Positions 50,403 through 64,000 are shown, counted from the stretch's first letter. The stretch: 64,000 bases of DNA from an uncultured Chloroflexia bacterium (GCA_963712745.1 CAVQJC010000010.1:114217-178216), one strand, 5' to 3'. Translations and numbers: made by a program. The notes: a model not told the origin generated them from the letters alone.

Positions 50403-50471
50403 GACCCCTCCCGGGCCGTTGGCAGGTTCTGTCGGGAGGCTACGACTCGGCTGGCACTGGGCGCGAGACCG

Positions 50472-51380
50472 TCATGGTCTGCCGTGGCACCTTCGCTCGC
50501 CGCCGTCGCTGTAGGTCTCACCCTCGACGGGCAAGAACTTCCAGGCGTATGACCCGTTCCGTAGCCGCAAGCGCAGTACCCCCCAGGCGTGGCCCTGGAA
50601 CGCTCGGCTATGAGCCGCTTTGGTATCTCCCCTGCCCCTTAGCGGGGCGCCGCCGGTGCCGACGATGAACTGCTGGACGCCATGGCGGCGGTCGACCCGG
50701 CCGTAGGGATCAGCCGGGGCCAGACGCTCGTAGTTGTGGTCATGTCCATTGACGATGATCTCCACACCCGACTTCCACAGCAATCGCTGGAGTGGCCGCA
50801 CGCGAGGATCATCACCATGACTCCCGCTGCTGTACAGAGGTGTGTGCCAGACCGCCATCGAACATCGCGCGCGCTGTTTCGCAAGCTTCTTCTTCAGCCA
50901 CGTGTACTGTGGGCTGCCGGGCCCGCATCCGACCTCGGTCTTGCAGGCCTCGCTGTCGAGGGCGTAGGCCCGCCAACTGCCGACCTTCACGCCGTAGTAG
51001 CCCCGCCGATCCGGCCCAGCGCGCCGACCGAAGTAGTCGAAGTAGCCGCTGGCACCGGGCGTGAGAACGTCGTGGTTGCCGGGCGTGGGTCGGGTCCGAT
51101 GGAGAAGGCGACCCCACGTGGGGTCGTAGTAGGCTTGGAACTCCTCGCGCGTGCCGCTCTGGTAGGCGTTATCACCGGCTGTCATCACGAGGCCTCTCTG
51201 ACCCTCCACCAGCCTGGCCGTTGCTGCCTCGCCAGAGGTGCCGGTCCCCGCGGCGATGTCGCCCGCGACGATGACGGTCGGAGACTTGGCAAGGGCGGGG
51301 AGAGCGATCGTCACCAGCAGGACGGCCATCGACAGGATCACAGCCAACAGGCGGACGGGCAGGCTCGTGCTGCGACTCAT
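50472..51380 (-). CDS. Secreted metallophosphoesterase (calcineurin-like)
   Basis: Signal peptide; AGDIA, GDNAY, PGNHD, WH, GHDHNYER. Confidence 0.9.
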   Translation of the reverse strand: MSRSTSLPVRLLAVILSMAVLLVTIALPALAKSPTVIVAGDIAAGTGTSGEAATARLVEGQRGLVMTAGDNAYQSGTREEFQAYYDPTWGRLLHRTRPTPGNHDVLTPGASGYFDYFGRRAGPDRRGYYGVKVGSWRAYALDSEACKTEVGCGPGSPQYTWLKKKLAKQRARCSMAVWHTPLYSSGSHGDDPRVRPLQRLLWKSGVEIIVNGHDHNYERLAPADPYGRVDRRHGVQQFIVGTGGAPLRGRGDTKAAHSRAFQGHAWGVLRLRLRNGSYAWKFLPVEGETYSDGGERRCHGRP

Positions 51381-51548
51381 CGCGCACAGGATAGACGACC
51401 AGCAAGCTTCCCTTGGTTCCACGACCAGCGTCGGTTCCGCATCGCACGACCCGCCCCAGGCGTCGATGGGTCAGGCGGGCACCCGAAGGCCGTGTGGGGC
51501 ATGACGCGGAGCCGGACCGTCCCGCGGGACGTCCGCCGCGGGCCGAGA

Positions 51549-51584
51549 GGGACGCGACCCCGACGCGTGGCCGGGGTCGCGTCC
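51549..51584. terminator. 13-bp inverted repeat downstream of the RTX-repeat gene
   Basis: GGACGCGACCCCG..CGGGGTCGCGTCC. Confidence 0.55.
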
Positions 51585-51605
51585 TGAGCGTGCGCTGGTC
51601 GGGCG

Positions 51606-52100
51606 CTAGGTCCTGACCGTGACCTTCTCGCAGCCGGTGACGAGGTCGCTGGGGTCGACGAAGGCACGATCGCGGTCGCCATCGCCGCAGTCGACGAAGT
51701 CGGCCCCGCCACCCGCGGCCCGGATGACGTCGTCGGCATCCCCGCCGAAGAGGCGGTCCCGGCCGGCCCCGCCGGTCAGCACGTCGCGACCGTCGCCACC
51801 GCGGAGGACATCGTTGCCCAGGCCGCCGTAGAGCTCGTCGCCCCGCCCGCCGCCGCGGACCACGTCGTTGCCGGGACCGCCGAGGATGAGGTCGCGGCCA
51901 TCCTTGCCGTAGAGGGTGTCGTTGCCGCCCCGACCGCCGATGCGATCGTGGCCCGGGCCACCCTCGAGCTGGTTGGCCTTGTCGTCGCCCTTCAGCACCT
52001 CGTCCCAGGGAGGACCGAGCCCGGCGCCGCTCACGCCCGAGCCGACCAGCATGAGCGCGAGCAGCGCCACGCCCAGCGCCTTGAGGATCATCGGTCTCAT
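51606..52100 (-). CDS. Secreted calcium-binding protein with RTX-type GGxGxD nonapeptide repeats
   Basis: GGAGG RBS, signal peptide, about 9 GGxGxDxL-like repeats, terminal DCGDG.D..CE motif. Confidence 0.88.
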   Translation of the reverse strand: MRPMILKALGVALLALMLVGSGVSGAGLGPPWDEVLKGDDKANQLEGGPGHDRIGGRGGNDTLYGKDGRDLILGGPGNDVVRGGGRGDELYGGLGNDVLRGGDGRDVLTGGAGRDRLFGGDADDVIRAAGGGADFVDCGDGDRDRAFVDPSDLVTGCEKVTVRT

Positions 52101-52365
52101 CACGTACCTCCTCGTACCCCGGGATGCCTGCTGCGCGACAGCCGTGCGGCTCTCATCCCAACAATATGATGGCTCCCGATCTCGGAATGTCCACCTCCAT
52201 TCCAAGATCCAGATCCGACAGGCCCCTTGGTTGCGCCGGCCTCGATCGGGCGTCAGCGAGTTCGAATCTGTGAGCGGTGGCATCCGCTCGGGCAAGTCCA
52301 CGGCATCGACCATCGATGACCTCGCTTGGCCTGCACGCCTCTTGGATGCACCCGCGATGGAAGAG

Positions 52366-52415
52366 TAGTGCGGGAGACGAGACTCGAACTCGCAGGGGAT
52401 CTCTCCCAGCGGTGT
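52366..52415 (-). mobile_element. Displaced 3' half of tRNA-Leu (att-like scar 1)
   Basis: Minus strand ACACCGCTGGGAGAGATCCCCTGCGAGTTCGAGTCTCGTCTCCCGCAC(TA): 3' anticodon stem, long variable arm, T arm and acceptor 3' strand. No 5' half. Confidence 0.75.
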
Positions 52416-52430
52416 CCAGGACGCGCTCTC

Positions 52431-52460
52431 GGCGTCCACGGGCGTCCACGGGCGTCCACC
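52431..52460. repeat. 3 x GGCGTCCAC(G/C) tandem repeat beside scar 1
   Basis: Read directly from the sequence. Confidence 0.85.
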
Positions 52461-52705
52461 CGCGCCCAGGATGGCCTCTCCGAAGGGCCTCGTGCGGGGG
52501 CCTGCCTACCGGCGTTGTGCTCACTGATTCGCCCATCGGGTCCCACCTGCCGCGTGATCCTCGCATCAGGTGCCATGTCCGGTCCCTCCGCCTACCCCCC
52601 GGTGCGCTCGACGGCGCGGCCCGCCGCGGTGAGGCACGACGGTGCCAAGTCGAGATCTCGCCGTCAGCTTGTTCGTCCGTGTCCGGCGGTGACGTCGCCC
52701 TGCCG

Positions 52706-53872
52706 CTAGCTCGGGCAGGCGGGCGAGATAGGAGCACCGGGCTGCTTGATGGCCTTCGCCAGGACACTGGGATTCGCTGTTCCGCCAGCAGTCGCCCAGT
52801 CCGCCAGCTTGGTGAGGTTGCTGTCCGGGCCCAGCACCGCGATGTAGATCGTGGGCCGCTTGACCCAGCGGCCATCGACCTTCACCTGCCTGCAACCGTT
52901 GGCTGGCTCAAGGAAGCGAAGGTTGGCCTTTCCGGCGGCGTTTCGGTAGCAGCCCTCCGTGGTGACGCCGCCACCGATCCAGTACGTCATGGACTTCTGA
53001 CCCTCCGAACAGCGTTTCCCGCTGTCGGTCACCCCGTTCTGGTCCATGCGCTGCTCGAACACCTTGGACGCATCAGGGCCATCCATGAGGTAGTAGGCCA
53101 TGTCCGCGACCGCAGAGGTGTCGGGCGCGCACTGCACCGCGGCGATCGTGCCGCTGGGGTTCTGGCCGCGGCGAGGCACGCAGGTGCCCCGGATGGCCGC
53201 CGGGATGCCCTTCCGGAGCACCTGCTCGGCAGAGGTGAACGTGGCAGGCTTTGGCTTGGCAGCTGCGGCCTTCTGGGCATTGAGCTGACTCCTGACCTCC
53301 TTCAGCTTGGCCTGGAGCGTGGAGACCTGCTTGCGCAGTTTGGTGGTCCTGTTGGCGGCCTTGGTCAGCCTGTCCACGTCCGCCTGCAGCACCCCGAATT
53401 CGGCGAGGATAGCGGCGATGTCACTGTCCGTCAGCGCGATGCTCGGTTGCTCGAAGGCCAGAATCACCTCGCCGTCTCCGTCGGACAACTGGAGAGCCCC
53501 CTCCGCGATGGCCCACGTCGCGACCATCGGGAGGGCGGCGAGGTAGGCGTCCTCGACCGTCGTCTCGTCCTCGGGGCAAGCCGCCAGCGTACGCTCGAAC
53601 TCGTCGCCGAAAGTGAGCGACTCGCCCTCAAGGGCATAGGTCCCGGTCAGGCTGTTGCAGCCACCGTCTCCGCTGGCAACCCCGGTATCGAACTGGAGCA
53701 TCGCGTCCACGGTCCAGGGGACGGGCACGAGCTCCCCATCGGCGGCGTAGGCGGTGAGGTCCCAGCGGGAGCCTTCGGGGCTATCGGGCTCGTCCTGGGC
53801 GAGCGCGGCGGACGGAATGGTGACCACGAATATCGCTGCCACGAGCGCGCGGCAGCGTCGGTACCTGGGCAT
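52706..53872 (-). CDS. Secreted META-domain protein with coiled coil and Cys-rich C-terminal domain
   Basis: Signal peptide (AALAQ), W.L..Y, SGDGGCN..G.Y, TLAAC, E.AYLAAL. Confidence 0.85.
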   Translation of the reverse strand: MPRYRRCRALVAAIFVVTIPSAALAQDEPDSPEGSRWDLTAYAADGELVPVPWTVDAMLQFDTGVASGDGGCNSLTGTYALEGESLTFGDEFERTLAACPEDETTVEDAYLAALPMVATWAIAEGALQLSDGDGEVILAFEQPSIALTDSDIAAILAEFGVLQADVDRLTKAANRTTKLRKQVSTLQAKLKEVRSQLNAQKAAAAKPKPATFTSAEQVLRKGIPAAIRGTCVPRRGQNPSGTIAAVQCAPDTSAVADMAYYLMDGPDASKVFEQRMDQNGVTDSGKRCSEGQKSMTYWIGGGVTTEGCYRNAAGKANLRFLEPANGCRQVKVDGRWVKRPTIYIAVLGPDSNLTKLADWATAGGTANPSVLAKAIKQPGAPISPACPS

Positions 53873-53926
53873 CGCAGAATCCCCCAACTTACGACCGCAT
53901 CGACGACACGAGGCTAGGCCCCACGT

Positions 53927-53983
53927 CAGTGGCTCGGCACGGCCCAGGCGGCCACCACAGGGCCGTGCCTCACAGCCTCCCGC
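53927..53983 (-). promoter_or_regulatory. Leader motif A, copy 1 (upstream of META gene)
   Basis: GCGGGAGGCTGTGA-GGCACGGCCC-loop-GGGCCGTGCC-GAGCCACTG; perfect 10-bp stem. Confidence 0.75.
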
Positions 53984-54899
53984 TTTGGCGCCACGGTCGA
54001 CGGTTCTAGAGCATCGCGCAAGTGTCCAAGGTCACCAGCGACTGGTGCCGCAATGGGTGTGGGCCTAGCCGGATGCTCGATCAGCGCGAGGCCGCCAGGC
54101 GGACGTCCCTCCACGACGCGGGCATTCCCGCAGCGGGGAGCGTCCACGACGTTGTAGCGCCCCAGGAACCACCCCGACTGCGCATCGACGGCCGCTACCC
54201 GGCGAAGCCACTTGAGGACGAGGCGGACAGCGTCCTCACGTTGGTCGTCGCAGGCGAGCCCGTGGGCGGCCTCCAAGCGGCGGTGGTGCTCGGCACAGCG
54301 GTCCGCCTGTTCGGGCGAGGCCAGTCGCCCAGAGAGGTGCGGACGAAGCGAGCGTCAGGGGCATGTCAGTGCTGAAGCGGCGGGGAACGAGCTCGAGGTC
54401 TCGGTGGATGCCGAGGCGATCGCTGCAATGCCGGTAGTCGATCAGCCCGCGACGATGCTGGGCTCTGGGCTCCCACTCGCCAGCCTCATCGGGGCAGCCG
54501 AGCACCCGACATAGCTCGCAGGGTCGGTCTCGTTGCGGCAGAGCTGAGCGTCGAGGTCCACCGGAACGACCTTGGTGGCGTGGTCCCCGAAACGGTCGTG
54601 TTGTCCCAGGCCCATCCGGCGATGGCCCGGTGGTGTCGGGAGTCGGGGACAGTGCGACAGCCATCGCCACCCAGGGCGATGTAGCGCGACAACCGGAGCG
54701 CGGTCCGGTGTGGCTCGGCCGTCCAGTAGCCCTCGCACTGGGTGACCGCGGCCTTGACGGCGTGATCGCGCCGTGCCCGCTCGTCGACCGCCGGCTAGAC
54801 CTCGCTGATGGCCCGCGTCATGAACGGGGGCTGGCTTCGCGAGGCGCACACACCCTTCGGGCCGCTGTAGTTGGGCATCAGCTTGAAGCGCAAGGGTCA

Positions 54900-55165
54900 C
54901 CGAGACGGGCATGCTGCACGCCGCGCCACCGTCCGGTGATCGTGCCGATAGCCGGTGATCGTGCCGATTTCGAGCACCCGACGGGCGCCAGTCAGATGCG
55001 CGAGCATGGCAGCCGATCGTCTGACGACTGGGCCCGCGAACTGGCGACCAGCGACGTTAGGCTCGTGCGTGTGCGCGGCCACGTCGGCGACGCAGCTGGT
55101 CGGGGGCAGACGCGGCGCTCCGCATACGCCACCAGGGGGTCGGCGATGTTCCGGTCGCGCACGGC
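54900..55165 (-). pseudogene. O-methyltransferase remnant (caffeoyl-CoA/catechol OMT family)
   Basis: MLAHLTGARRVLEIGT.TGY motif; frame broken upstream; ends at a 17-bp duplication. Confidence 0.6.
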
Positions 55166-55223
55166 CGCATCACTCCGCCCGGCGGCGCCGCTCGCGGTGT
55201 CCGATGGGCAAGCGATGCCTGGG

Positions 55224-56174
55224 TCAGGCGGCCCACTCCTTGGCGAGGGCGCCCAAGAGGTCTACGTACTCGAGGTCATGGGGCAGGAAGTCCTGGAGGA
55301 CGATCATCTCGACACCCGCGTCCGCGTACTCACGGATCTTGACGGCCGCCTCGTCCGGGGTGCCGATGGCCCAGGAACCGCCGCGCTCGGTCTCGAGGGA
55401 CACGCCACTCCCATACTCCATCGTCTCGACAAGGGTGGCGATACGCCGGTCGGCCTCGGCGCGGTCGGCGCCGATGGCGACGGCGCACAGCACCGACGTC
55501 AGGACCTCACCCGGATCGCGGCCTTCCGCCGCGCATGTGTCGCGGAAGCGAACGAGAGTCTCAGCCGTGCCCTCGGGATCGATCGTGTTGAGATTGAGGT
55601 GGTCTGACCAGCGCGCGGCTGTGCGCAGCCCGCGCGACACGCCGATCGTGCCCATGATCAGCGGGACCCCCGCCTGCTGGACGGGCTTGGGGGCGTATCG
55701 CGTGTCCTCGACCGTGTAGTGCTTGCCGTAGAACGACCAGCCCGGCCCCTCGTTCCAGAATCCGCGCACGATCTGGAACTGCTCCTCCATCATCTCGATC
55801 CGCGTGGTCCGGTCGTAGAAGGCGAGGCCGTGGCGGGCATGCTCGACCTCGTTCCAGCCGGCCCCCAGGCCGAGCTCCACGCGACCTCCGCTCATCTCGT
55901 CGATCGTCGCGACGACCTTGGCCACGTTCGCGGGGTGTCGGTACGTGACCGGCGACACCATCGTCCCGTGCCGAAGCCTCGAGGTCTCGTGAACGAGGCC
56001 CGCGATCGTCGCCCAGGCATCGGTCGTATGCTTGCCGGCCGGGCCTGGGAACGACTCGTAGTGGTCGGCTCGATAGAGGATCTCGAAGCCGGCCGCCTCC
56101 GCTCGCTGCGCGATCTCGACGTGCGTCGACCACGCGACGTCTTGCTGGGGTTCGATCATCAGTGCGAATCGCAT
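55224..56174 (-). CDS. LLM-class (luciferase-like, probably F420-dependent) oxidoreductase
   Basis: MRFALMIEPQQ, RADHY, TDAW, VSPVTYRHP, DEMSGGRVELGLGAGW..EH. Confidence 0.9.
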   Translation of the reverse strand: MRFALMIEPQQDVAWSTHVEIAQRAEAAGFEILYRADHYESFPGPAGKHTTDAWATIAGLVHETSRLRHGTMVSPVTYRHPANVAKVVATIDEMSGGRVELGLGAGWNEVEHARHGLAFYDRTTRIEMMEEQFQIVRGFWNEGPGWSFYGKHYTVEDTRYAPKPVQQAGVPLIMGTIGVSRGLRTAARWSDHLNLNTIDPEGTAETLVRFRDTCAAEGRDPGEVLTSVLCAVAIGADRAEADRRIATLVETMEYGSGVSLETERGGSWAIGTPDEAAVKIREYADAGVEMIVLQDFLPHDLEYVDLLGALAKEWAA

Positions 56175-56285
56175 GCACGCCTCCAGGCTGGATGTCCTCG
56201 CCGGCTCACCCACTTGCTCACAGTACTGGTTAGACGTCCATGCAACAGGGGTCAAGGACCGCCGGCGCCGGCGTTGCGCCTATCG

Positions 56286-56341
56286 TGGTGCCGGAGACGA
56301 GATTTCGAACTCGCACGGGGTTGCCCCCAGCGGTGTTTAAG
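56286..56341 (-). mobile_element. Displaced 3' half of tRNA-Leu(TAA) with CCA end (att-like scar 2)
   Basis: Minus strand CTTAAACACCGCTGGGGGCAACCCCGTGCGAGTTCGAAATCTCGTCTCCGGCACCA starts at the anticodon loop. Upstream sequence cannot form a D arm or the acceptor 5' strand. Confidence 0.85.
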
Positions 56342-56475
56342 TGAGCGGTCAGAGGGGACTCACGGGGACAGATGACCCCCATTTCACGCTCAGCCACGCT
56401 CAGGTCTGTCAGGTCCCCTGGGTCACGTCTGGACTCCCATAGCCTTAACCGATAGCCGAAGTAGAAGTCGGTCTG

Positions 56476-56511
56476 GTGGACATGTCCACTTGACATGTCC
56501 ACCTTGTCCAC
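56476..56511. repeat. GTGGACATGTCCAC palindrome plus two further TGTCCAC copies
   Basis: Read directly, about 135 bp inside scar 2. Confidence 0.8.
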
Positions 56512-56529
56512 CAACTCGAACGACCGCGG

Positions 56530-57144
56530 TCAGGTCAGGCTCTCGATCCCCTGGTCGATGAACTGAACACCGTCGTCCCAGGTGCGCATCAACTGCTCGA
56601 CCACCGAAGCCCGCCATGCCGGAATGTCCGTGTACCAGTCGTCGGGTGCCTCGATGAGGCGGTAGGCGATCCAGTGACTGCCGCGGCGATACCTCTTGGG
56701 TGCGACGAGCTCTCGTTCTGCCAGTGGACGCACCGCCGCCTCGATGGCACGGCCCCGCTCCGTGGCATGTGAGGCGAGCACCCCCACATAGGGCAGGCTG
56801 GCACCGGACCCCCGCGTGGGCTGCACCTTGCGCCCGTCCCAGCCGATGCCGATGGCGATGTCGGGACCGTCAGCGCCCGGTGTCAGCCACGACGGCCGAT
56901 GGAGCATCGGTGCGGGCCATGAGTCGCCGGCGACATGTTCCGCGACGGAGAGCTCGATGCCAGCGTCGGTGGCCGCTTCCTGGAGCAGACCTCCCAGCCG
57001 CCGCAGTTCATCTCCGACCGCGTCCGACACCTCGTTCGCCAGCGCGGCCCAGAGCAGGATGAGGTCGTGGTTCTCGAGGAAGAACTGGAGCCGGTCGTCC
57101 TCGAGGGCGCTGGTCATCTCCGGTGTGGTCTCGTCGTTCGTCAT
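56530..57144 (-). CDS. Hypothetical protein (204 aa)
   Basis: GAGGGA RBS, ATG start, balanced composition unlike GC-rich shadow ORFs. Confidence 0.7.
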   Translation of the reverse strand: MTNDETTPEMTSALEDDRLQFFLENHDLILLWAALANEVSDAVGDELRRLGGLLQEAATDAGIELSVAEHVAGDSWPAPMLHRPSWLTPGADGPDIAIGIGWDGRKVQPTRGSGASLPYVGVLASHATERGRAIEAAVRPLAERELVAPKRYRRGSHWIAYRLIEAPDDWYTDIPAWRASVVEQLMRTWDDGVQFIDQGIESLT

Positions 57145-57146
57145 GC

Positions 57147-57434
57147 CTGATCCCTCGTGGTGATGGTGAATGGCGCGGCTGGTCCGACCAGGTGGTCGAG
57201 AGCGAAGCCGACCTGCGGCAATACGGCGGGATCCGCGAGCTCATCAAGAGCGAGACGGTCGGGATTATCAGCTCGAACGACGACTACCCGCGCCTCGCGG
57301 CGTTCCTGCGCGACTACAGGGATTGGCTACTCGCCGAGGGCAAGGGCATGCGCCCGACCTTCGAGGGGATGGCGCCGGGGGCCGACCAGACATCCGACGA
57401 TGGCTCGGAGGAAGTCCTCAGCTTCGACCTGTAG
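57147..57434 (+). pseudogene. Probable C-terminal fragment of an unknown gene
   Basis: Protein-like reading GEWRGWSDQVVESEADLRQYGG..EEVLSFDL with no credible start; abuts the divergent gene at 57144. Confidence 0.4.
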
Positions 57435-57644
57435 ACCGGGCCATATCGTCTCGAGCGGCGCTCAAGGCCAGCCGCCGGGGCGCTCAGCCGAGCGGGACGG
57501 GCTCGTTGCGGGGGCCAGGCGCTTGCCACCGGAGGGCCTCTTCGCAGTACACACGATTCTCCCATCGTGACGCGGCCGTACTTCTGCGCTCATGAACATC
57601 GCCTCTTGTGTGCTGAGACAGGCACGCGACACCATCGACGGCGA

Positions 57645-57728
57645 GCGGGAGGCGATGACGCTCGGTCCGTGCCCTGGCCGCCTGGATCGTGCCGAGCTAC
57701 AGGTGGCGGCCTGTGCGAGGTGTGGACC
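57645..57728 (+). promoter_or_regulatory. Leader motif A, copy 2
   Basis: GCGGGAGGCGATGA-CGCTCGGTCC-GTGCCCTGGCCGCCT-GGATCGTGCC-GAGCTAC, followed by ATG at 57729. Confidence 0.75.
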
Positions 57729-58293
57729 ATGCAGGAAGCCGGTCTGTTCGTCACGCTGGCCGAGATAGCCGGTGTCTTCGTCGGCTTCGGGGCACTCATC
57801 GCCGTGCGCAGCGGCGGTGCGAGCGATGCGAGGGAGGTGTTGTACATCCGCTCGGTGTTGTCCATCGGAGTCTGGGTGGTCGTCGCGGCACTCACTCCGG
57901 TGACCCTCGGCGCCTATGACATCGGCGAGCGTGAAGTCTGGCTCGTGAGCGGCCTCGTGGCGCTCGCCTGGTTCTCGTGGGCGTGTGGGCCGTCAACCGC
58001 CGGACACCCGAGATGCAGGACTACTGGGCGGGGCGAGCTAAGTGGCGTACATCCACGCCGCGGGCGCAGCTCGTGCTCGAGGCAGCCGGGAATACGCTCC
58101 TCGCGGTCGCCATTCTGTGGCTGCGCTCGTCCTCGTCGTGCTGGGCCTGTTCCCGGACCAGGAGTCGGCGGTCTATCTCACCGCCGTCGTGCTGGGCCTG
58201 TTCGGGGCCGCGCTGAGCCTCCTCTTCCTGGTCTTCGCACATCGCGGCCCGACGCCAGCTGTGTCTGATGAGCTGGAGGAACCCGCCGAATAG
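57729..58293 (+). CDS. Membrane protein with ~5 TM segments; two -1 frameshifts (~57974, ~58114), pseudogene or sequencing error
   Basis: MQEAGLFVTLAEIAGVFVGFGALI continues across three ORFs; both breaks fit TTCCT>TTCT. Confidence 0.7.
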
Positions 58294-58299
58294 CCCCAT

Positions 58300-58327
58300 C
58301 GCGCCGCCTCGGCTGCCTGCGGCGCCC
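58300..58327 (+). repeat. 3' repeat C, copy 1 (copy 2 at 59433-59460)
   Basis: CGCGCCGCCTC(G/A)GCTGCCTGC(G/C)GCGCCC, 26/28 identical. Confidence 0.7.
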
Positions 58328-58377
58328 AGGTCATCAACGCTCTGGCGGTAGACACCCGGAGGACAATCCAGGCATAC

Positions 58378-58470
58378 GCGGGAGGCGATGAGACGCGGCC
58401 TGTGCCCTGGCCGCCCTGGACCGCGTCGAGCCACTGGCGAACCCGGCCCGCGCCTGAGAAGGGGGATGTC
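58378..58470 (+). promoter_or_regulatory. Leader motif A, copy 3
   Basis: GCGGGAGGCGATGA-GACGCGGCCT-loop-GGACCGCGTC-GAGCCACTGGCGAACCCGGCCCG..AAGGGGGA, followed by ATG. Confidence 0.8.
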
Positions 58471-59322
58471 ATGCGGAGGTTGAGACTGTTTCTGGTGGGA
58501 ACGGTCATGCTGACCTTGCTCGGAGGGCTGGGCGGCGCGGCGATGGCGCAGGACGAGATGCCGGGGGTCAGCGTCGAGACCCTCAGTGACCACGCGCTGA
58601 TCCCGGTGGAGGCCATACCCGAGACGACCGACCACCTCGCGCTCTGGCGGACCTGGGTCGAGCCAGGGACCGCCGGGGAGCTCGGGTCCGAGCACCCGTC
58701 GCAGGGAGTCAAGGTCGCCTATGTCGAGAGTGGCGCGGTCACGTTGGAGCGCGATGGCGACACCACGTTGTGGCGAGGCGACGGCAGTGTCGAGGCGGCC
58801 CCAGCCGGGACACGCTACTCGCTCGGCTCGGGTGACACCGAGCTGGAGCGGGATGGCACGTCCTCGTTCTCGTTCGAGGTGCCTGCCGAAGATGGACTGG
58901 TCATCCTCTATGTGGGCATGAGCGACAGCATCGAGCCGGCCGAAGCGCAGCAGCAACCACCAGGCGTCAGCCCCGAGGTGCTCGCCTACATCGTCCCTGA
59001 TCAGGCGGACCTCGAGCGCTTGTTCAGCCGGCCGCTCGGCGTCTCGTTCGAGCGGGTGACCCTCGATCCGGGGGCGCAGCTCGTGCTCGGGCGTGACGAG
59101 GTCCCCATGCTCGCGTTCATCTGGCTCGAGAGCGGCAAGCTCAAGTACGATGAGGTACCCGCCGACGAGGTCTCCCAAGCGGATCCTGACTTCACGCTCT
59201 GGTCGGGCGACACCTGGATCGGGCAGACGCCCGCTGCTGGAGATGTCCACGTACTTCGTAACGAGGGGGACGAGCCGGCTGTGGCGATCGGGGTGACGCT
59301 GTCCCACGCGTCGGACACCTGA
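58471..59322 (+). CDS. Secreted protein with probable tandem cupin-like domains
   Basis: Signal peptide (AAMAQD); two repeats of EPG/DPG...ESG.V/L; ends LRNEGDEPAV. Confidence 0.75.
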   Translation: MRRLRLFLVGTVMLTLLGGLGGAAMAQDEMPGVSVETLSDHALIPVEAIPETTDHLALWRTWVEPGTAGELGSEHPSQGVKVAYVESGAVTLERDGDTTLWRGDGSVEAAPAGTRYSLGSGDTELERDGTSSFSFEVPAEDGLVILYVGMSDSIEPAEAQQQPPGVSPEVLAYIVPDQADLERLFSRPLGVSFERVTLDPGAQLVLGRDEVPMLAFIWLESGKLKYDEVPADEVSQADPDFTLWSGDTWIGQTPAAGDVHVLRNEGDEPAVAIGVTLSHASDT

Positions 59323-59514
59323 GCGTTCGGCGACCGTCTCCGAATGATCCGCTCCGTGAGGGATTAGCCCCTCGATCGATCCGGGCGGAGAGGACTCACC
59401 GTCACCGCCCACCCGGATCAAGTGCCGGACGGCGCGCCGCCTCAGCTGCCTGCCGCGCCCCGCTCAGCGGGTCAAGGGCCGGACGGCCCGACGGCGTGCG
59501 CGGCGGCCGTGGGG

Positions 59515-60082
59515 TCAGGCTAAGTCGTCCAGCCGACGGGGCGATCGCGGGATCGGTGAGGCCTGCGATGGTGGCTCGACCATGCCACGGGTCGCCTCGA
59601 TGAACTCGCTGAGGGCTTCAGCGGGAGATCTCGGAGGTGACGGTGAGACCCTGGTGCTGGCTGATCGATGACGGCCTGGCGGACAGCACCTGGAACCTGT
59701 CGATGATCAGGCACGCATCGCGGGGTGTCATGTACCAGGCGGGCTCCTCGCTGATGCTGCCGTCGGGCTGCCTGACCTTCTTCGTCGCCTTCAGGTCGGC
59801 CCTGAACCTGGCGATGGCCTCAGCGATGGCCTCGAGGACCTCGTCGTGGATCTCGGCCTGGCGAGCAGCCATGCGCTCGGCGTGGTGCTTGATGAAGGAC
59901 TCCGACGCCCGGGCCTGATACGCCTCGCGCTTCCTCTCCCAGTCCCCTTTCTTGGCCTGGACGACGACGGCGGAGTGGGCCTTGATGCCATGGCGCCTGC
60001 ACAACTCTCTGATGGAGATGTCGGTGCTGATGAACTCGCGCTCGAGGGCGCGGTAGTCGTGGGACTTGTTGATGACGACCAC
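59515..60082 (-). CDS. HTH protein resembling a phage terminase small subunit; probable +1 frameshift near 59624
   Basis: DYRALEREF..ISIRELCRRHGI..AKKGDWER N-terminal HTH. After correction the frame continues SAEALSEFIEATRG to TGA at 59515. Confidence 0.55.
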
Positions 60083-60461
60083 CCTTTCGGGCTGTCTCGG
60101 CCTCCGGCCTCTCCTCGCCGCGACGAGGGGCGGAGTCACCGTCTGGCTCCATCGTAGCCCTCGATGCAAGCGGACAGATGCACGCGGGGTGGTGGCGCAC
60201 GGAGGGAACAGTGGAGGGAGTGGATGGGGGCCGGCATCCCGCCTGCCTGGGTCACCGGACCCCAGCGCTGGCATAGCAGCCACCTGAGGCAGGGGGGATG
60301 GTACCGGCGGACCAGGACCGACTCGGGACCGCTCCAGACCCTACCGGGCCGTCCCTGGACAGCGTTGTCGATGGGCACCATGTCGAGGTCGTGGCGGGGT
60401 TGGTCGGATGCGTGTCGGCTCGCGGCGCTGTTTCAGCGTGCAGGAGCTGCTCAGGATCACG

Positions 60462-61119
60462 TCAATACGGACCGACCGCAGACGACCAGTAGTCCGATGG
60501 TGTCGGGGTAGATGACTGTATGGGTGCTCGGGCTCGCGGCGCCGAGCGTGGGCCTGGTCGGATGGTCAGTCGTCGGTCGGAGTCGGGAAGGATCCATCCC
60601 TCGATGTCCCAGCCCTCCCACTCGTTCTCCAGCGGTCCTACGAATCGCACGGTGGCGCTGAGCCCCTCGTTCGCTCCCACACCGTGGGAGCCAGGACACC
60701 TGCACTGGGTAGGGGGCGAAGGGGTCACACCCCCAGTCGGCTGGCTGTTCTGCGGTGCCGAACCGAGTCCCCGAGCCACGTGACGGGACCGTCACGGCCG
60801 AGGCGGCCCGAGGCATCGCACGTGTGGATGCGGACCGTCAGCCGGCCCCAAGGAGCCCCTGCCGTGCCGCCGGTCGGCTTCACCACGTAGCAGCCCGTCA
60901 GCCGCGCATCGCTCGTCATCGCGGCACCTTCGTACCGGCAGAGCGACTCGGGCCCGCAGCTGCATCCCCATCCGAACGTAGGTGCCGGTCACTTCCACCG
61001 GCCCGCGCTGGGCCACGCAGTACTCGGGCGGGGCTGTTCGTCGCATCCTGAGCCAGCGTCAGCGTCCCCAGCATCGAACACATCAGGACGGCCACTCCAA
61101 CGGCCCTTACCGTGCGCAT
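60462..61119 (-). pseudogene. Secreted hypothetical protein with several frameshifts
   Basis: Signal peptide MRTVRAVGVAVL..LAQD, then PVEVTGT, MTSDARLTG, GVGANEGLSA and WDIEGWILP in different frames. The true end is probably near 60570. Confidence 0.6.
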
Positions 61120-61210
61120 CGGACTCCCCTCGCTCACACGGGCCGGGTCCGCCAGTGGCTTGGCACGGTCCCGGCGGCCAGGGTATGGGCCGTGCCTCAT
61201 CGCCTCCCGC
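61120..61210 (-). promoter_or_regulatory. Leader motif A, copy 4
   Basis: GCGGGAGGCGATGA-GGCACGGCCC-ATACCCTGGCCGCCG-GGACCGTGCC-AAGCCACTGGCGGACCCGGCCCG..GAGGGGAG, followed by ATG. Confidence 0.8.
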
Positions 61211-61402
61211 TACCGACTATTGTCCGCCTCGCGACAAGGCCACTGGGCGTTCGACGGTGGTAGATGGGCGTGCGGTCGGTCCGCTGTTCTCAGGGTCTTC
61301 GGCGCGGTTCTCGGGCCCAACGTCGTGTCGATGTCGGTATCGCTGAGGCCAAGCAGGGGCAGATGCTCTTGGTGTCCGTGTCTATCCCTATGGGGATCTG
61401 GC

Positions 61403-61435
61403 TCGCGGCGCTGAGCGTGGCGGGTGGTCGGGTCG
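61403..61435 (-). repeat. 3' repeat B (other copies 62211-62243, 60531-60561, partial 60417-60430)
   Basis: TCGCGGCGCTGAGCGTGG(C/T)GGGTGGTCGGGTCG, 32/33 identical between 61403 and 62211. Confidence 0.8.
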
Positions 61436-61441
61436 GCGGTA

Positions 61442-62083
61442 TCAGTCCTTGTAGCCAGTCGTCAGGTACGCGCCCAGGACACGCCGCCCGGACACGCGCC
61501 GGAAGCCCGCCTCTTCCATGACCTCGCATCGATCCATGCCGACGACCGCTCGTCCACCGGGCTTCAGCACCCGGTACATCTCCTGGATCGCGGCAGGGGC
61601 CTTGGCCTCGTAGCAGTTCACGTCGTTGCTGGTCACGACCGTGAAGGTGTCGTCGGGCCACGGCAGCGTGGCGGCATCCCCGACGACGAACTCGGCACTG
61701 CCCTCGGAGATCCGGTCGGCGTTCTCGCGCCGTGCTTGATCGATCATCGCCTGCGACATGTCGAGGCCGGCGATGCGGCGGATGTGTGTGGCGTGCTTGG
61801 CGAGGAAGACCCCCGAGCCGCAGGCCACGTCGAGGACCTCATCCTCCGGTTGCAGACCGATGCCCTTGGCGTAGGCGGCGTAGAGCAAGGAGTTCAGCGG
61901 GGCGTAGTGGCGGGCCAGGAACCGCCCCAGAGGCCCGTCGAGGGTCCTGAGCTGGGCGTCCTCCGACCCCATCCACTGCCAGGCCGCCTCGATGCGTTCC
62001 CAGAGGCCGCTGAGCCGCAGCGCGACCCCGGCGATGCCGACGACGGTGATGGTAGCGAGGCTTGCTCGCATGAAGCCGTTCAT
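61442..62083 (-). CDS. Class I SAM-dependent methyltransferase with hydrophobic N-terminus
   Basis: VLDVACGSG, GLDMS, GDA..LPW.D..F, EMYRVLKPGG. Confidence 0.9.
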   Translation of the reverse strand: MNGFMRASLATITVVGIAGVALRLSGLWERIEAAWQWMGSEDAQLRTLDGPLGRFLARHYAPLNSLLYAAYAKGIGLQPEDEVLDVACGSGVFLAKHATHIRRIAGLDMSQAMIDQARRENADRISEGSAEFVVGDAATLPWPDDTFTVVTSNDVNCYEAKAPAAIQEMYRVLKPGGRAVVGMDRCEVMEEAGFRRVSGRRVLGAYLTTGYKD

Positions 62084-62147
62084 GGCGTTCCCCCTTGCCA
62101 TACGCGCGGGCCGGGTCTGCCAGTGGCTCGGTGCGGTCCAGACGACC
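62084..62147 (-). promoter_or_regulatory. Leader motif A, copy 5 (3' part only)
   Basis: GGTCGTCTGGACCGCACCGAGCCACTGGCAGACCCGGCCCGCGC..AAGGGGGA, followed by ATG. Confidence 0.7.
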
Positions 62148-62286
62148 CGCCCTCGTTGGTAGGGTGCCGCATGTCTACGGCGACCGACAAGAGGCCTGGG
62201 TCACGAAGGTTCGCGGCGCTGAGCGTGGTGGGTGGTCGGGTCGTGGACGGGTGGTGGTGTGGCTGACGGCTGCCGCGAGCAAGAAG

Positions 62287-62315
62287 GAAGAGGCCCGCCC
62301 CTCGCGGGACAGGCC
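62287..62315 (-). terminator. Terminator-like hairpin T, copy 1
   Basis: Minus strand GGCCTGTCCC-GCGA-GGGGCGGGCC-TCTTC. Confidence 0.65.
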
Positions 62316-62351
62316 CCGCAGGCAGCCGACGAGGGCTGATCCGAGGTGTCG

Positions 62352-62824
62352 CTACTTGCAGGAGACGCTGTTCAGGATGTTCGACACCGTCGTCTGATCC
62401 CGTTGGCGTTGATCGTGAGGTGTGAGGTGAACGTGAGCGTGTAGTCGGGGGCCTTCCCCTGTCCGACCATCTTGAGCGTCTCGCGCACCGTATCCGTGAC
62501 GGGCGAGCCGCCCGACCCGGTGTTGATCACCGTCTTGCGGGTGTCGCTCCCGCGATAGACGTTGCCGGTGGTCGTACCCACGCCGACGAACGTCTTCCTG
62601 CTGAGGAACGTGGTGTGGCTACCACCGGCGCCGTCGTAGGTCTCGGTGATTACCTGGTGCCACTTGCCCTCGAGATTGAGCCCCTCCTCGAGGCACGACT
62701 ACGGGGCCGTAGACGTACGACCCGGTCCTCGTTCGTTGTAGACGTTCGCCGCGGACGTGGGCAGGACGGCGAGCAAGGAGAGCGCCAGTGCCAACGACAA
62801 CGAGAGTCCGATGAGCTTGCGCAT
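62352..62824 (-). pseudogene. Secreted beta-rich hypothetical protein; in-frame TAG at 62699-62701 and a frameshift near 62400
   Basis: Signal peptide MRKLIGLSLSL..SAA, then CLEE..GVGTTTGNVY..GQGKAPD..HLTINANG..SVSCK. Confidence 0.6.
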
Positions 62825-62973
62825 GGTGCGCACCCCCCTCATGCGGGTCGCAGCTTCCTCGGATGCGGACGCATGGCAGCGGCCGCCCGGCGCGACCTCC
62901 ACCCCGGATTCTCCTCCGTCGTCCAGCGACCTCGTCCACGTCTGACTCGGGCACGCAGGAACCTGATGCTCGA

Positions 62974-63004
62974 GAAGAGGCCCGCCCCTCGCGGGACGGG
63001 CCTC
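62974..63004 (-). terminator. Terminator-like hairpin T, copy 2
   Basis: Minus strand GAGGCCCGTCCC-GCGA-GGGGCGGGCCTC-TTC. Confidence 0.7.
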
Positions 63005-63032
63005 GAATGGCGGTCGGGCGCGAGATGCCCGG

Positions 63033-63887
63033 TCACTTGAGCCGGTCGATCACGTGTTCTGCCTTCGCGACTAGGTTCTTGGCAGCAGCGACGGCGATCT
63101 TCTTCCCCGCCTGTGCTTCAACCTTGTTTACGAAGGCTCTCAGCTGTCCGACCGCTGCCTTGTCGTTGCGCGTGCTGCTATCGGCGAGTTTGCTGACCGC
63201 AACGTCGAGCGAGGCGCCGAGCGCATTCCTGACTCCCCGAGCGACGTCGAGATTCGCGACATCGCCACTGAGGTGCCGAACCGACTTCAGCGGCGACGGC
63301 GGGCTCGTCGTGAGCTTGAGAGAGACCCAGCTCTTGCGACCCGCCTTCTGGTTCGGTTGGCGGATGGCGAAGCCTACGTACTTGTCGCCCTGGGCGGCCC
63401 GCTTGTTCACGAACGACAGCACGTCGAGAGACAGTGGTCCCGAGCTGTGATTGAACGTGGCGATGAAGTTGGCGCCGGAGTCGAAATCGGGGTTGGACAC
63501 GGACCCATCACCGACGTACCCCCAGAGTTCGAGCGTCGCCGGTCCCGTGGTGTTGTAGAACGGCGAGCCACTGAACCTCGCAGAAGACTGCGGGAAGAGC
63601 AGGCCTGAGACATCGAACTCGACGATGGCACGTTCCTCCTGGCCGGGAGGAACGCGGTTCAAGACCGCGAAGAAGCCCCCGAGGACGCAATCAGGGGTGC
63701 CGTCGCGGGGCGGAGGCGGCGACATACCCGAGCACGCGCCGTCCACGACCGTGGCATACGCAGTGGGGCTGATGACGTTGTCGCCGTTCGCGACTACGGG
63801 CGCGGCGAGAGTGCCGACGGTGAGCGCTGCCAGAAGTGCCGCGGAAGTCGTGAAAGCCGTGGCGCGACGCAGAGTGTTCCCGTTCAC
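63033..63887 (-). CDS. Secreted protein with a beta-sandwich domain and a C-terminal FIMAH-like helical domain
   Basis: Signal peptide; RAIVEFDVSGL; AVGQLRAFVNKVEAQAGKKI. Domain names are from recalled similarity. Confidence 0.75.
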   Translation of the reverse strand: MNGNTLRRATAFTTSAALLAALTVGTLAAPVVANGDNVISPTAYATVVDGACSGMSPPPPRDGTPDCVLGGFFAVLNRVPPGQEERAIVEFDVSGLLFPQSSARFSGSPFYNTTGPATLELWGYVGDGSVSNPDFDSGANFIATFNHSSGPLSLDVLSFVNKRAAQGDKYVGFAIRQPNQKAGRKSWVSLKLTTSPPSPLKSVRHLSGDVANLDVARGVRNALGASLDVAVSKLADSSTRNDKAAVGQLRAFVNKVEAQAGKKIAVAAAKNLVAKAEHVIDRLK

Positions 63888-64000
63888 TGGATTACCCGCG
63901 TATCAAGGCGGTGAGGAGTCCCGCCTTACCGACTCCGACCATTCATTGGGCGGATGATCGGCTACTCCGGAAGCTAAGTGGGAGGCCGATGGCGACGACG

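What the first reader, a model, noticed from the sequence alone, without database searches (positions are those of the whole stretch)
53873..62147. Repeated 5'-leader with compensatory base pairs ahead of five unrelated genes: candidate new regulatory RNA
Seen in sequence: one motif lies in the sense orientation upstream of the META gene (53927-53983, -), a membrane protein (57645, +), a cupin-like protein (58378, +), a secreted protein (61210, -) and, as a 3' part only, a methyltransferase (62147, -). Consensus: GCGGGAGGCGATGA-[arm1]-..TGGCCGCC..-[arm2]-RAGCYAC(TGGC..CCCGGCCCG)-RBS-ATG. The arm pairs are GGCACGGCCC/GGGCCGTGCC, GGCACGGCCC/GGACCGTGCC, GACGCGGCCT/GGACCGCGTC and CGCTCGGTCC/GGATCGTGCC. 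These show three compensatory swaps: pair 2 G-C>A-T, pair 4 A-T>G-C, pair 8 C-G>T-A. In three copies the 5' GCGGG can also pair with CC(C/T)G(C/T) close to the RBS, tolerating G-U pairs. A -10-like hexamer (GACAAT, GACAAT, CACCAT) lies 8-10 nt before three copies, suggesting the motif starts the transcript. Inference: a cis-acting structured RNA (riboswitch-like or protein-bound) that controls a set of mostly envelope/secreted genes. I do not recognise it as a known family.
Basis: partly seen in the sequence, partly recalled or inferred. Interest (0 to 1): 0.85.

Follow-up and report, generated by a model that had tools for sequence, protein, structure and literature searches.

The report
Known c-di-GMP-II-type riboswitch, many copies
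The repeated leader is not a new RNA but a known riboswitch aptamer of the cyclic-di-GMP class II type, which this uncultured soil or sediment bacterium uses in unusually large numbers ahead of mostly secreted-protein genes.

Summary
Rfam cmscan places the motif in clan CL00127, the c-di-GMP-II variant aptamers. Window 58372-58457(+) scores 68.9 bits and 61132-61216(-) 59.8 bits on RF03170. 57639-57720(+) scores 44.1 on RF03169. 53902-53989(-) is sub-threshold at 38.8. 62101-62147(-) is a 3' remnant. The genome holds 47 RF03170 matches, 32 of them over the cut-off, and 44 full-length copies by my own profile. In 41 of those 44, an SD plus start codon follows 7-21 nt downstream in the same orientation. 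P3 shows compensatory changes, and P1, P2 and the pseudoknot are conserved. A -10-like hexamer sits 9-14 nt before P1. The most likely function is a translational riboswitch at the 5' end of single-gene mRNAs. I could not infer whether it switches ON or OFF. One nuance: at the three ligand-pocket positions that name the Rfam families (canonical A-A-G, variants G-C-G and G-A-G), 36 of 44 copies here read A-C-G. Two window copies are intact A-C-G, two are degenerate there, and one is a remnant. The ligand is untested; c-di-GMP is the most probable. Interest is modest.

The parts
58372..58457 (+). Intact aptamer copy with P1, bulged A, P2, P3 and pseudoknot. Pocket positions 69/70/73 read A-C-G.
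   Evidence: RF03170 68.9 bits, full model 1-85. Pocket read from the cmscan alignment and from A1.
58361..58366 (+). -10-like hexamer GACAAT, 11 nt before the P1 5' strand.
   Evidence: Read. The position is conserved across 43 copies.
58471..59322 (+). Single-gene unit encoding a 283-aa exported cupin-like protein. SD GGGGGA and ATG lie 14 nt after the aptamer.
   Evidence: ORF and SD. Cupin_2 E 1.1e-5, 25.5 bits, below the cut-off of 27.2. Signal-peptide-like N-terminus.
61132..61216 (-). Intact aptamer copy, pocket A-C-G.
   Evidence: RF03170 59.8 bits, model 1-85.
61219..61224 (-). -10-like hexamer GACAAT on the minus strand.
60570..61119 (-). Gene for a signal-peptide protein. ATG at 61119, 13 nt after the aptamer. 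The reading frame is interrupted after 67 codons.
   Evidence: Related metagenome contigs differ by single-base indels at 60765-61018.
57639..57720 (+). Aptamer copy with a 3-nt deletion that removes pocket positions 69-71. Probably impaired.
   Evidence: RF03169 44.1 bits against a cut-off of 40; the alignment shows the gap. Also A1.
57630..57635 (+). -10-like hexamer CACCAT.
57729..58293 (+). Membrane-protein gene with no Pfam family. ATG lies 9 nt after the aptamer. Low third-position GC (0.69) suggests a frameshift.
   Evidence: A homologue sits behind a similarly truncated aptamer in another genome (cluster 10).
53902..53989 (-). Divergent aptamer copy. P1, P2 and P3 are kept, one pseudoknot pair is mismatched, and the pocket/J region is rewritten.
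   Evidence: RF03170 38.8 bits, below the cut-off of 47.9. nhmmer covers profile positions 3-68 only. Pocket reads G-G-T in A1.
52706..53872 (-). META-domain protein gene (388 aa, signal-peptide-like). ATG lies 29 nt after the aptamer.
   Evidence: Pfam META E 1.4e-18. ORF.
62101..62147 (-). Aptamer remnant holding only the 3' half: P3 3' strand, P2 3' strand, J and P1 3' strand.
   Evidence: nhmmer profile positions 39-85, E 7.9e-6. No cmscan match at E<=10.
61442..62083 (-). Class-I SAM methyltransferase gene (213 aa). SD AAGGGGGAA and ATG lie 17 nt after the remnant.
   Evidence: Methyltransf_11 E 1.4e-22. Five paralogues stand behind full aptamers elsewhere in the genome.

Best explanation
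The repeats are copies of a c-di-GMP-II-type riboswitch aptamer (Rfam clan CL00127; best models RF03170 and RF03169). Each copy appears to sit at the very 5' end of a single-gene mRNA. A -10-like hexamer lies 9-14 nt upstream, so transcription probably starts 0-2 nt before a short 5-bp P1. The Shine-Dalgarno sequence and start codon follow 7-21 nt after the aptamer, which leaves no room for a terminator. The inferred mechanism is ligand binding in the three-helix junction, which stabilises P1 and the pseudoknot and changes ribosome access to the adjacent SD, giving translational control. The fold, its conservation, its position and its orientation are shown here. The transcription start, ligand binding and the direction of the switch are inferred or unknown. 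The ligand is most probably c-di-GMP. The two intact window copies keep both base-reading pocket residues of the solved class-II structure (A69 and G73) and differ only at the intercalating position (A70 to C). My sub-probabilities are: member of this aptamer fold 0.95, cis-regulatory 0.85, translational 0.7, ligand c-di-GMP about 0.55, ON versus OFF undecided.
For: Rfam matches: three copies pass curated cut-offs and a fourth has E 3.5e-4.
Genome-wide counts: 47 RF03170 matches, 32 over the cut-off. There are 57 nhmmer hits, 44 of them full-length.
Position: 41 of 44 full copies have a purine-rich SD plus ATG/GTG/TTG opening an ORF of at least 40 aa, 7-21 nt downstream on the same strand. One of the three exceptions has SD plus ATG at +17 with a 38-codon frame. 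In other genomes, 106 of 139 copies have this at 6-25 nt.
Structure: P3 changes on both sides in 7 of 9 pairs (own genome) and 9 of 9 pairs (other genomes). Overall pairing is 75.8% and 78.1%, against 30-42% when the 3' partners are slid by 1-3 columns. The fifth pseudoknot pair alternates between U-A (18) and C-G (16).
No terminator-like site lies between any window aptamer and its start codon.
The promoter-like -10 is conserved.
Pocket mapping: the consensus lines are AGUgGUGCAACCGg for RF01786, AgUGGCGAGCCCGa for RF03170 and AgUGGCGAGACCGa for RF03169. The text of PMC13715770, read in full, states that in 3Q3Z A69 reads one guanine, G73 the other, and A70 stacks between them. The window copies read GGCG-A-A-C-C-C-G and GGCG-G-A-C-C-C-G, which is A69, C70, G73.
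The genome has c-di-GMP enzymes: 8 GGDEF and 5 EAL matches.
The same gene families stand behind different pocket types. SRPBCC: A-C-G 4, G-A-G 4, A-A-G 1, G-C-G 1. Methyltransferase: A-C-G 10, G-A-G 3.
Against: No copy reaches the gathering score of the canonical c-di-GMP-II model: 0 of 37 matches, best 49.5 against 53.5.
The pocket is neither canonical A-A-G nor the G-C-G of the best-scoring family, and ligand binding is untested.
Three thermodynamic tests found no consistent SD-sequestering switch. Mean SD unpaired probability was 0.49 with P1 enforced and 0.45 with it blocked (34 copies). It was 0.47 in a bound-like state and 0.43 unconstrained (107 copies). SD-aptamer duplexes were no stronger than with shuffled SD regions (-11.8 against -12.3 kcal/mol).
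Many copies are related by duplication of promoter, aptamer and signal peptide together. Part of the conservation is therefore descent, and shuffle controls overstate the covariation.
Two of the four full window copies are degenerate in the pocket region.
No RNA data were available to place the transcription start.
Confidence: 0.85

Rival explanations
1. The fold is the same but the ligand is different. The A-C-G pocket (and G-A-G and G-C-G in relatives) has been retuned to another cyclic dinucleotide or a different metabolite, so this regulon does not report c-di-GMP.
For: Rfam keeps the G-A-G and G-C-G types apart from c-di-GMP-II, and none of the copies here passes the canonical model. Position 70 contacts the ligand by stacking. 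An engineered single-nucleotide deletion variant of a class-II aptamer binds cGAMP isomers, and one base-pair change shifts the 3',3'/2',3' preference from 41.8-fold to 4.2-fold (PMC13715770, whole text). Specificity in this fold is therefore easy to move. Four pocket types coexist in the lineage, sometimes in one genome.
Against: A69 and G73, the two base-specific readers, are kept in the A-C-G type. Canonical-pocket A-A-G copies occur on the same scaffold, in the same genomes and ahead of the same gene families. No regulated gene found here points to another metabolite (30 downstream proteins scanned).
Confidence: 0.35
2. The copies are inert leader sequences carried along when promoter, leader and signal-peptide cassettes were duplicated. 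On this view they are conserved by recent descent and not by function.
For: About 20 copies share a promoter-like block, and many share the N-terminal MRTLRLSL... signal peptide. Some pairs are identical (C2:108458 and C20:4185; C5:98135 and C5:101572). There are 13 truncated copies, and some are degenerate.
Against: The element is kept ahead of unrelated proteins: methyltransferase, SRPBCC, GNAT, Fe-S protein, periplasmic binding protein, esterase and rhodanese. It occurs in 23 of 24 same-genus genomes, and exact-pattern matches come from many records labelled Chloroflexota or Ca. Limnocylindria. Changes concentrate in P3 as compensatory pairs, while the pocket, P2 and the pseudoknot stay nearly invariant.
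Confidence: 0.05
3. A mobile or repetitive extragenic element (REP/MITE-like) that happens to fold.
For: High copy number, clustering in islands, and truncated copies.
Against: Orientation and spacing are fixed with respect to the downstream start codon in 41 of 44 full copies. The match is to a curated riboswitch model over its full length. I saw no terminal inverted repeats, but I did not run a dedicated search for target-site duplications.
Confidence: 0.02
4. A protein-bound leader (an autoregulatory or regulon-wide RNA-binding protein) and not a small-molecule sensor.
For: Nothing specific. No tool here can exclude it.
Against: The full-length match, pseudoknot and pocket nucleotides included, is to a fold whose members are solved with bound cyclic dinucleotides.
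Confidence: 0.03

Closest known systems
c-di-GMP-II-GCG aptamer (Rfam RF03170)
   Same: It is the best-scoring model for three of the four full window copies, two of them over the cut-off (68.9 and 59.8 bits), and for most genome copies. The helices, bulged A, loop/3'-tail pseudoknot and C at pocket position 70 are the same.
   Different: The consensus has G at pocket position 69, where 36 of 44 copies here have A. Only 1 of 44 (C7:63328-63413, ahead of a DUF5658 membrane protein) is truly G-C-G. The outer six pairs of the model's 11-bp P1 are mostly unpaired here.
c-di-GMP-II-GAG aptamer (Rfam RF03169)
   Same: It is the best model for 57639-57720 (44.1 bits). It is the commonest pocket type in other Chloroflexota or Limnocylindria-labelled records (65 of 139), with the same scaffold and the same kinds of downstream gene.
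   Different: Its pocket is G-A-G. The window copy assigned to it lacks positions 69-71 altogether.
Canonical c-di-GMP-II riboswitch (Rfam RF01786; solved structure 3Q3Z as described in PMC13715770)
   Same: The architecture is the same. It shares the ceiling adenine after P2, A69 and G73, and sits in the 5' UTR ahead of surface or exported protein genes. That such gene associations are typical of c-di-GMP riboswitches is recalled, not taken from a call.
   Different: A70 is replaced by C. The pseudoknot and loop sequences are GC-rich variants. No copy passes the canonical cut-off (0 of 37). Canonical members do occur in the phylum: 25 of 151 sampled genomes are over the cut-off, a tally that includes the unpublished genome G184. 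One canonical-scaffold member in a same-family genome (L208) also carries A-C-G.
Engineered c-di-GMP-II-Bh (BhP1-5delC) variant that binds cGAMP isomers
   Same: It shows that small changes in this fold redirect cyclic-dinucleotide specificity (PMC13715770).
   Different: It is a laboratory variant of a Bacillus aptamer. Its changes are a single-nucleotide deletion and the first P2 pair, not position 70.

Membership tests
Rfam RF03170 (c-di-GMP-II-GCG) | Covariance-model score at or above the curated gathering score (47.9 bits) | tested here: met
   Met by 58372-58457 (68.9) and 61132-61216 (59.8). Not met by 53902-53989 (38.8). 32 of 47 genome matches are over the cut-off.
Rfam RF03170 (c-di-GMP-II-GCG) | Pocket nucleotides G-C-G at the positions equivalent to 69/70/73. 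This is inferred from the family names, the three consensus lines and the residue roles in PMC13715770. | tested here: not met
   Both intact window copies read A-C-G. In the genome the counts are A-C-G 36, A-A-G 2, G-C-G 1 and other 5, of 44. I therefore file them under the clan, nearest to RF03170, and not as strict G-C-G members.
Rfam RF03169 (c-di-GMP-II-GAG) | Score at or above 40 bits and pocket G-A-G | tested here: inconclusive
   57639-57720 scores 44.1, but positions 69-71 are deleted in the alignment.
Rfam RF01786 (canonical c-di-GMP-II) | Score at or above 53.5 bits | tested here: not met
   0 of 37 matches in the genome reach it; the best is 49.5.
Rfam RF01786 (canonical c-di-GMP-II) | Pocket A69, A70, G73 | tested here: not met
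   A69 and G73 are kept; A70 is C.
c-di-GMP-II fold (clan CL00127) | P1, bulged A, P2, internal loop and P3, with base pairing kept through compensatory change | tested here: met
   P3 has 7 of 9 pairs (own genome) and 9 of 9 pairs (other genomes) with changes on both sides. P2 cells are paired at 97.6% and 98.3%. The inner five P1 pairs are conserved.
c-di-GMP-II fold (clan CL00127) | Pseudoknot between the P3 loop and the 3' joining region | tested here: met
   Loop CGCC pairs with GGCG in 121-137 of 139 sequences. Those four pairs hardly vary, so they carry little covariation evidence. The fifth pair alternates U-A 18 and C-G 16, with a mismatch in 101.
Riboswitch (general) | Sense orientation in the 5' UTR immediately ahead of the regulated ORF | tested here: met
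   41 of 44 full copies in the genome and 106 of 139 in other genomes.
Riboswitch (general) | Direct, selective ligand binding that changes expression | not testable with these tools
   No binding or expression data. No RNA run holds the locus.
REP/MITE-like repeat | Orientation independent of genes; terminal repeats or target-site duplications | tested here: not met
   Orientation and spacing to start codons are fixed. I did not search for target-site duplications specifically.

The most novel reading that the evidence does not exclude
The A-C-G pocket keeps A69 and G73 and replaces the intercalating A70 by C. On this reading it is a fourth natural pocket class of the c-di-GMP-II fold, with its own ligand preference. 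In this Limnocylindria-like genus it has been copied onto more than 40 single-gene units, mostly exported proteins of unknown function. That would make one of the largest single-riboswitch regulons, tied to an uncharacterised signal.
Probability: 0.25. Interest if true: 0.7.

Novelty: new member of a known kind. Interest (0 to 1): 0.33.

Why it matters
For the scan, this finding is explained: a cmscan against Rfam settles it, and it should not be carried forward as a new RNA class.

Three points may still interest riboswitch specialists.

1. One 4.2-Mb genome carries 47 matches to a single aptamer family, about one per 90 kb, arranged in islands of one-riboswitch-one-gene units.
2. Four pocket types (A-A-G, A-C-G, G-A-G, G-C-G) occur on one scaffold, in one lineage, and ahead of the same gene families. 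This is a natural experiment on what sets ligand specificity in this fold.
3. I found no paper in the library that reports the ligand of the G-A-G or G-C-G families. The paper I recall as their source (Weinberg et al. 2017, PNAS) is not held, so I could not check what it says.

The regulon is dominated by lineage-specific secreted proteins of unknown function. It offers a handle on cyclic-dinucleotide signalling in an uncultured soil or sediment lineage.

Tried and rejected
New RNA family: rejected by Rfam matches over curated cut-offs.

Canonical c-di-GMP-II membership: rejected. 0 of 37 matches reach 53.5 bits. Even copies with an A-A-G pocket in related records score best with RF03169 (13 matches in 9 loci, none assigned to RF01786).

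SD sequestration. I ran three tests. (a) P1 enforced against its 5' strand blocked, 34 own copies: SD unpaired 0.49 against 0.45, with 7 copies higher by more than 0.2 and 3 lower. (b) Bound-like state (helices enforced, joining region made unavailable) against unconstrained, 107 copies from other genomes: 0.47 against 0.43, with 24 higher and 11 lower. (c) Best SD-aptamer duplex against a shuffled SD region: -11.8 against -12.3 kcal/mol, with no preferred partner site. None shows a consistent switch, so I give no direction. These folds ignore the pseudoknot and the ligand.

Strict sigma-70 scan: 1 promoter-like site in 53500-62600, not near an aptamer. The -10-only signal comes from my own column counts.

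Expression data: no RNA holder was listed for window 57500-61400. Laying four DNA contig sets cannot show starts or strands. It showed only summed-depth peaks over the two aptamers in that stretch (58286-58547 and 61037-61298), with many loose ends at 58415 and 58451. That pattern fits a conserved core shared by many contexts. It also showed single-base indels in related contigs at 60765-61018.

Function of the main regulated protein family: 271 homologues, none with a Pfam domain among the 120 listed, and every source-given name was 'hypothetical'. A profile search of PDB sequences gave nothing significant (best E 0.19).

tRNA at 56.3 kb: ARAGORN finds none in 50000-64000. Only a 3' fragment is present.

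Literature: the Weinberg 2017 PNAS paper, Smith 2011 PNAS and Lee 2010 Science are not held. What I say about them is recalled. Supplements were not consulted. The supplements of PMC5737381 and PMC13715770 may bear on the variant families. No paper in the library holds both 'Limnocylindria' and 'riboswitch'.

Rows dropped. C17:38850-38951, which has a 17-nt insertion, was left out of alignment A1, so A1 holds 44 of 45 references (43 of the 44 full-length copies plus the window copy 53902-53989, which nhmmer classed as partial). Two copies did not match the anchor regex (43 of 45 used). One copy lacked a recognisable P1 3' strand. In one search only 100 of the 116 external loci were searched.

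Full report
WHAT IS THERE

I read window 53700-62400 and ran the whole window against Rfam 15. Three matches pass curated gathering scores. They are 58372-58457(+) and 61132-61216(-) to RF03170 (c-di-GMP-II-GCG, 68.9 and 59.8 bits, cut-off 47.9), and 57639-57720(+) to RF03169 (c-di-GMP-II-GAG, 44.1 bits, cut-off 40). A permissive scan of 53500-62600 adds 53902-53989(-) to RF03170 at 38.8 bits (E 3.5e-4, below the cut-off). Apart from three chance-level hits, it finds nothing else.

The fifth element is found only by an nhmmer profile that I built from the genome's own copies. It lies at window 62101-62147(-) and covers profile positions 39-85, the 3' half.
- The arms are helix P3.
- The GCGGG/CCCGC pairing is P1.
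- The conserved TGGCCGCC and TGGCG are the two strands of the class-II pseudoknot.
- The element is a member of a family that has been in Rfam for years.

GENOME-WIDE PICTURE

The window is C10:114217-178216 of a 4.22-Mb, 20-contig assembly (68-69% GC, completeness 84.6%, contamination 5.0%).

RF03170 matches 47 places at E<=0.001, 32 of them over the cut-off. My profile finds 57 places, 44 full-length and 13 truncated. No copy reaches the cut-off of the canonical model RF01786 (0 of 37, best 49.5 against 53.5).

The copies cluster in islands, for example 8 within C7:63-75 kb and 8 within C5:76-112 kb. The five in the window span 8.3 kb.

In 41 of 44 full copies a purine-rich SD and an ATG/GTG/TTG opening an ORF of at least 40 aa follow 7-21 nt after the model's end, on the same strand. 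One of the three exceptions also has SD plus ATG at +17, but its frame breaks after 38 codons. This fixed orientation and spacing excludes a REP/MITE-like repeat.

REGULATED GENES

I scanned 30 downstream proteins against Pfam. Those with a family are:
- META
- Cupin_2 (weak)
- class-I methyltransferases (a paralogue group of 6)
- SRPBCC/polyketide-cyclase-like (3)
- a periplasmic binding protein
- a BD-FAE esterase (two identical copies)
- rhodanese
- GNAT
- a 4Fe-4S protein
- a BNR/sortilin-like protein
- a dynamin-like GTPase
- DUF4886 and DUF5658

Fourteen of the 30 have no family. Most of those are proteins of 170-190 aa that begin MRTLRLSL... By a crude heuristic, 27 of 41 first-pass ORFs in this genome and 78 of 107 in other genomes have signal-peptide-like N-termini. 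The commonest family has 271 homologues in the large protein collection. None of the 120 listed has a Pfam domain or any name other than 'hypothetical'. Where a source names the organism, it is Ca. Limnocylindrales or Chloroflexota.

STRUCTURE AND COVARIATION

On 44 own copies (42 distinct), the structure with the pseudoknot pairs 75.8% of cells. With the 3' partners slid by 1-3 columns the figure is 33-39%. Seven of nine P3 pairs change on both sides. P2 and four pseudoknot pairs hardly vary. Of the Rfam model's 11-bp P1, only the inner five pairs are kept.

I built a covariance model from these copies and searched 100 loci from other genomes. It found 140 matches. On those, 78.1% of cells pair (30-42% when slid), and all nine P3 pairs change on both sides. 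The fifth pseudoknot pair alternates U-A (18) and C-G (16), with a C·A mismatch in most.

Two caveats apply. Many sequences are close kin, and the second alignment is fitted to the model, so both lean towards the structure. The shuffle controls are not probabilities.

PROMOTER AND TRANSCRIPT START

With 43 copies aligned on the P1 5' strand, position -10 is A in 32, -9 is T in 27 and -1 is A in 36. The usual hexamer at -14..-9 is GAGAAT, GATAAT or GACAAT.

About 20 copies share a longer block, roughly TGGACGCCCGCGAGAGAATC. A second group has CTTGAAC... followed by TCATAC.

If this is the -10 element, transcription starts 0-2 nt before P1. That would explain why the outer P1 pairs of the Rfam model are absent here. 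This step is inference. A strict two-hexamer scan finds no promoter there, and no RNA run was available.

MECHANISM

With 7-21 nt between aptamer and start codon, and no terminator-like site in that gap in the window, control at translation initiation is the economical reading.

I tried to infer the direction and could not. SD accessibility barely differs between P1-enforced and P1-blocked folds (0.49 against 0.45, 34 copies). It also barely differs between bound-like and unconstrained folds (0.47 against 0.43, 107 copies). The SD region pairs with the aptamer no better than a shuffled SD region does. The switch may depend on tertiary compaction next to the SD, which secondary-structure models cannot show.

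THE POCKET

To place the ligand-contacting residues, I found canonical class-II members in the same phylum and printed their alignment to RF01786. The 14-nt joining region between P2 and P1 reads:
- AGUgGUGCAACCGg in RF01786
- AgUGGCGAGCCCGa in RF03170
- AgUGGCGAGACCGa in RF03169

Positions 9, 10 and 13 of this stretch are therefore A-A-G, G-C-G and G-A-G. This matches the family names and the residues A69, A70 and G73 of structure 3Q3Z. The text of PMC13715770 states that A69 and G73 read the two guanines and that A70 stacks between them.

The two intact window copies read A-C-G. Across the 44 aligned copies the counts are A-C-G 36, A-A-G 2, G-C-G 1 and other 5.

Copy 57639-57720 has lost positions 69-71. 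Copy 53902-53989 is rewritten in this stretch and has a mismatch in the pseudoknot. Together with the remnant at 62101-62147, only two of the five window elements look like competent aptamers.

I file the copies under clan CL00127, nearest to RF03170, but not as strict G-C-G members.

RELATIVES

RF03170 matches 23 of 24 same-genus genomes, with 1 to 31 copies each; this genome has the most. It matches none of 16 genomes (1.0-1.4 Mb) of the other family sampled in the order.

Nearly all are MAGs labelled Chloroflexia, Chloroflexota or Ca. Limnocylindria(-ales). A few strays are labelled Cellulomonas, Actinomycetes, Isosphaeraceae, Armatimonadota, Patescibacteria or Dactylosporangium.

Among 139 distinct matches from those loci, the pocket is G-A-G in 65, A-C-G in 47, G-C-G in 9 and A-A-G in 9.

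The types follow lineage, and A-C-G dominates in this genus. Some genomes hold two or three types. The same gene families sit behind different types. Copies with an A-A-G pocket on this scaffold still score best with RF03169. A canonical-scaffold aptamer in a same-family genome carries A-C-G (L208).

The single true G-C-G copy in this genome precedes a DUF5658 membrane protein. So do the single G-C-G copies of two same-genus genomes. This looks like an old, conserved locus beside a recent A-C-G expansion.

LIGAND

Nothing here tests binding. Four points favour c-di-GMP:
- The A-C-G type keeps both base-reading residues.
- Canonical-pocket copies share scaffold and gene families with the variants.
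- The genome encodes 8 GGDEF and 5 EAL matches, plus one DAC domain.
- The regulon consists of exported proteins.

Three points count against it:
- The canonical model rejects all copies.
- Position 70 touches the ligand.
- This fold's specificity is known to shift with small changes.

I put c-di-GMP at about 0.55, another cyclic dinucleotide at about 0.2, and something else at about 0.25.

VERDICT

The motif is a known riboswitch aptamer family, newly seen in quantity in an uncultured Chloroflexota lineage. The functional reading is supported and the novelty claim is refuted. The undescribed-looking A-C-G pocket and the size of the regulon deserve a note but not a high score. I could not check the source paper of the variant families, so I cannot say that the A-C-G type is unreported.

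The search of earlier findings, the protein atlas for new sequences and structure prediction.

Noticed in passing
G000 C7, C17, C5 and others; in the window, upstream of 58372 and 61216: Promoter-like block, aptamer, SD and an MRTLRLSL-type signal peptide recur together ahead of unrelated mature proteins (cupin-like, esterase, periplasmic binding protein, unknown). This suggests a 5' cassette that has been duplicated or recombined onto different genes.
   Followed up: partly
window 61380-61445 and 62211-62243; 10 places genome-wide: A repeat of 30-65 nt (core CTCGCGGCGCTGAGCGTGG.GGGTGGTCGGGTCG) lies about 160-190 nt upstream of several aptamer copies in a fixed relative orientation. Its function is unknown. 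It may be part of the duplicated upstream region.
   Followed up: partly
window 56286-56328 (-): A tRNA-like 3' fragment (variable arm, T arm, acceptor 3' strand and CCA) without the 5' half. ARAGORN calls no tRNA here, and the assembly holds no second copy. It is possibly an att-site remnant of an integrated element.
   Followed up: partly
window 57729-58293 and 60570-61119; L038, L039, L078, L086; C10:43192 downstream: Many riboswitch-controlled ORFs change frame after a few dozen codons. Related metagenome contigs differ by single-base indels in 60765-61018. These could be assembly indel errors or true pseudogenes; this is not resolved.
   Followed up: partly
G000 C7:63328-63413 (-); L095, L096: The genome's only true G-C-G-pocket copy has the Rfam-like loop CGGUCGCC and precedes a DUF5658 membrane protein. 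Two same-genus genomes have a single G-C-G copy ahead of a homologous protein.
   Followed up: partly
L208:61-144 (+): An aptamer in a same-family genome is best matched by the canonical c-di-GMP-II model (65.3 bits) yet carries the A-C-G pocket. The A70-to-C change is therefore not confined to the variant scaffold.
   Followed up: no
G000 C15:167471-167556 and 167569-167654 (+): A 5' half-copy of the aptamer stands 13 nt before a full copy, a truncated-plus-intact tandem.
   Followed up: no
L058:249-794 and paralogues; alignment A3: A lineage-specific family of exported proteins of about 180 aa has invariant W72, P75-R76-L77, W113 and a C-terminal EGYIFEGELPP motif. It has 271 homologues, no Pfam domain and no PDB relative by sequence. 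It is the main cargo of this riboswitch.
   Followed up: partly
window 58286-58547 and 61037-61298: In four estuary, sediment or aquatic metagenome contig sets, summed contig depth over the aptamers is tens to hundreds of times that of the flanking genes, with many loose ends at 58415 and 58451. This is as expected if the conserved aptamer core occurs in many contexts and organisms in those samples.
   Followed up: no
window 55224-56174 (-): A luciferase-like monooxygenase gene (Pfam E 3.4e-51) lies between riboswitch units, and the stretch 54000-55200 has no clean long ORF.
   Followed up: no
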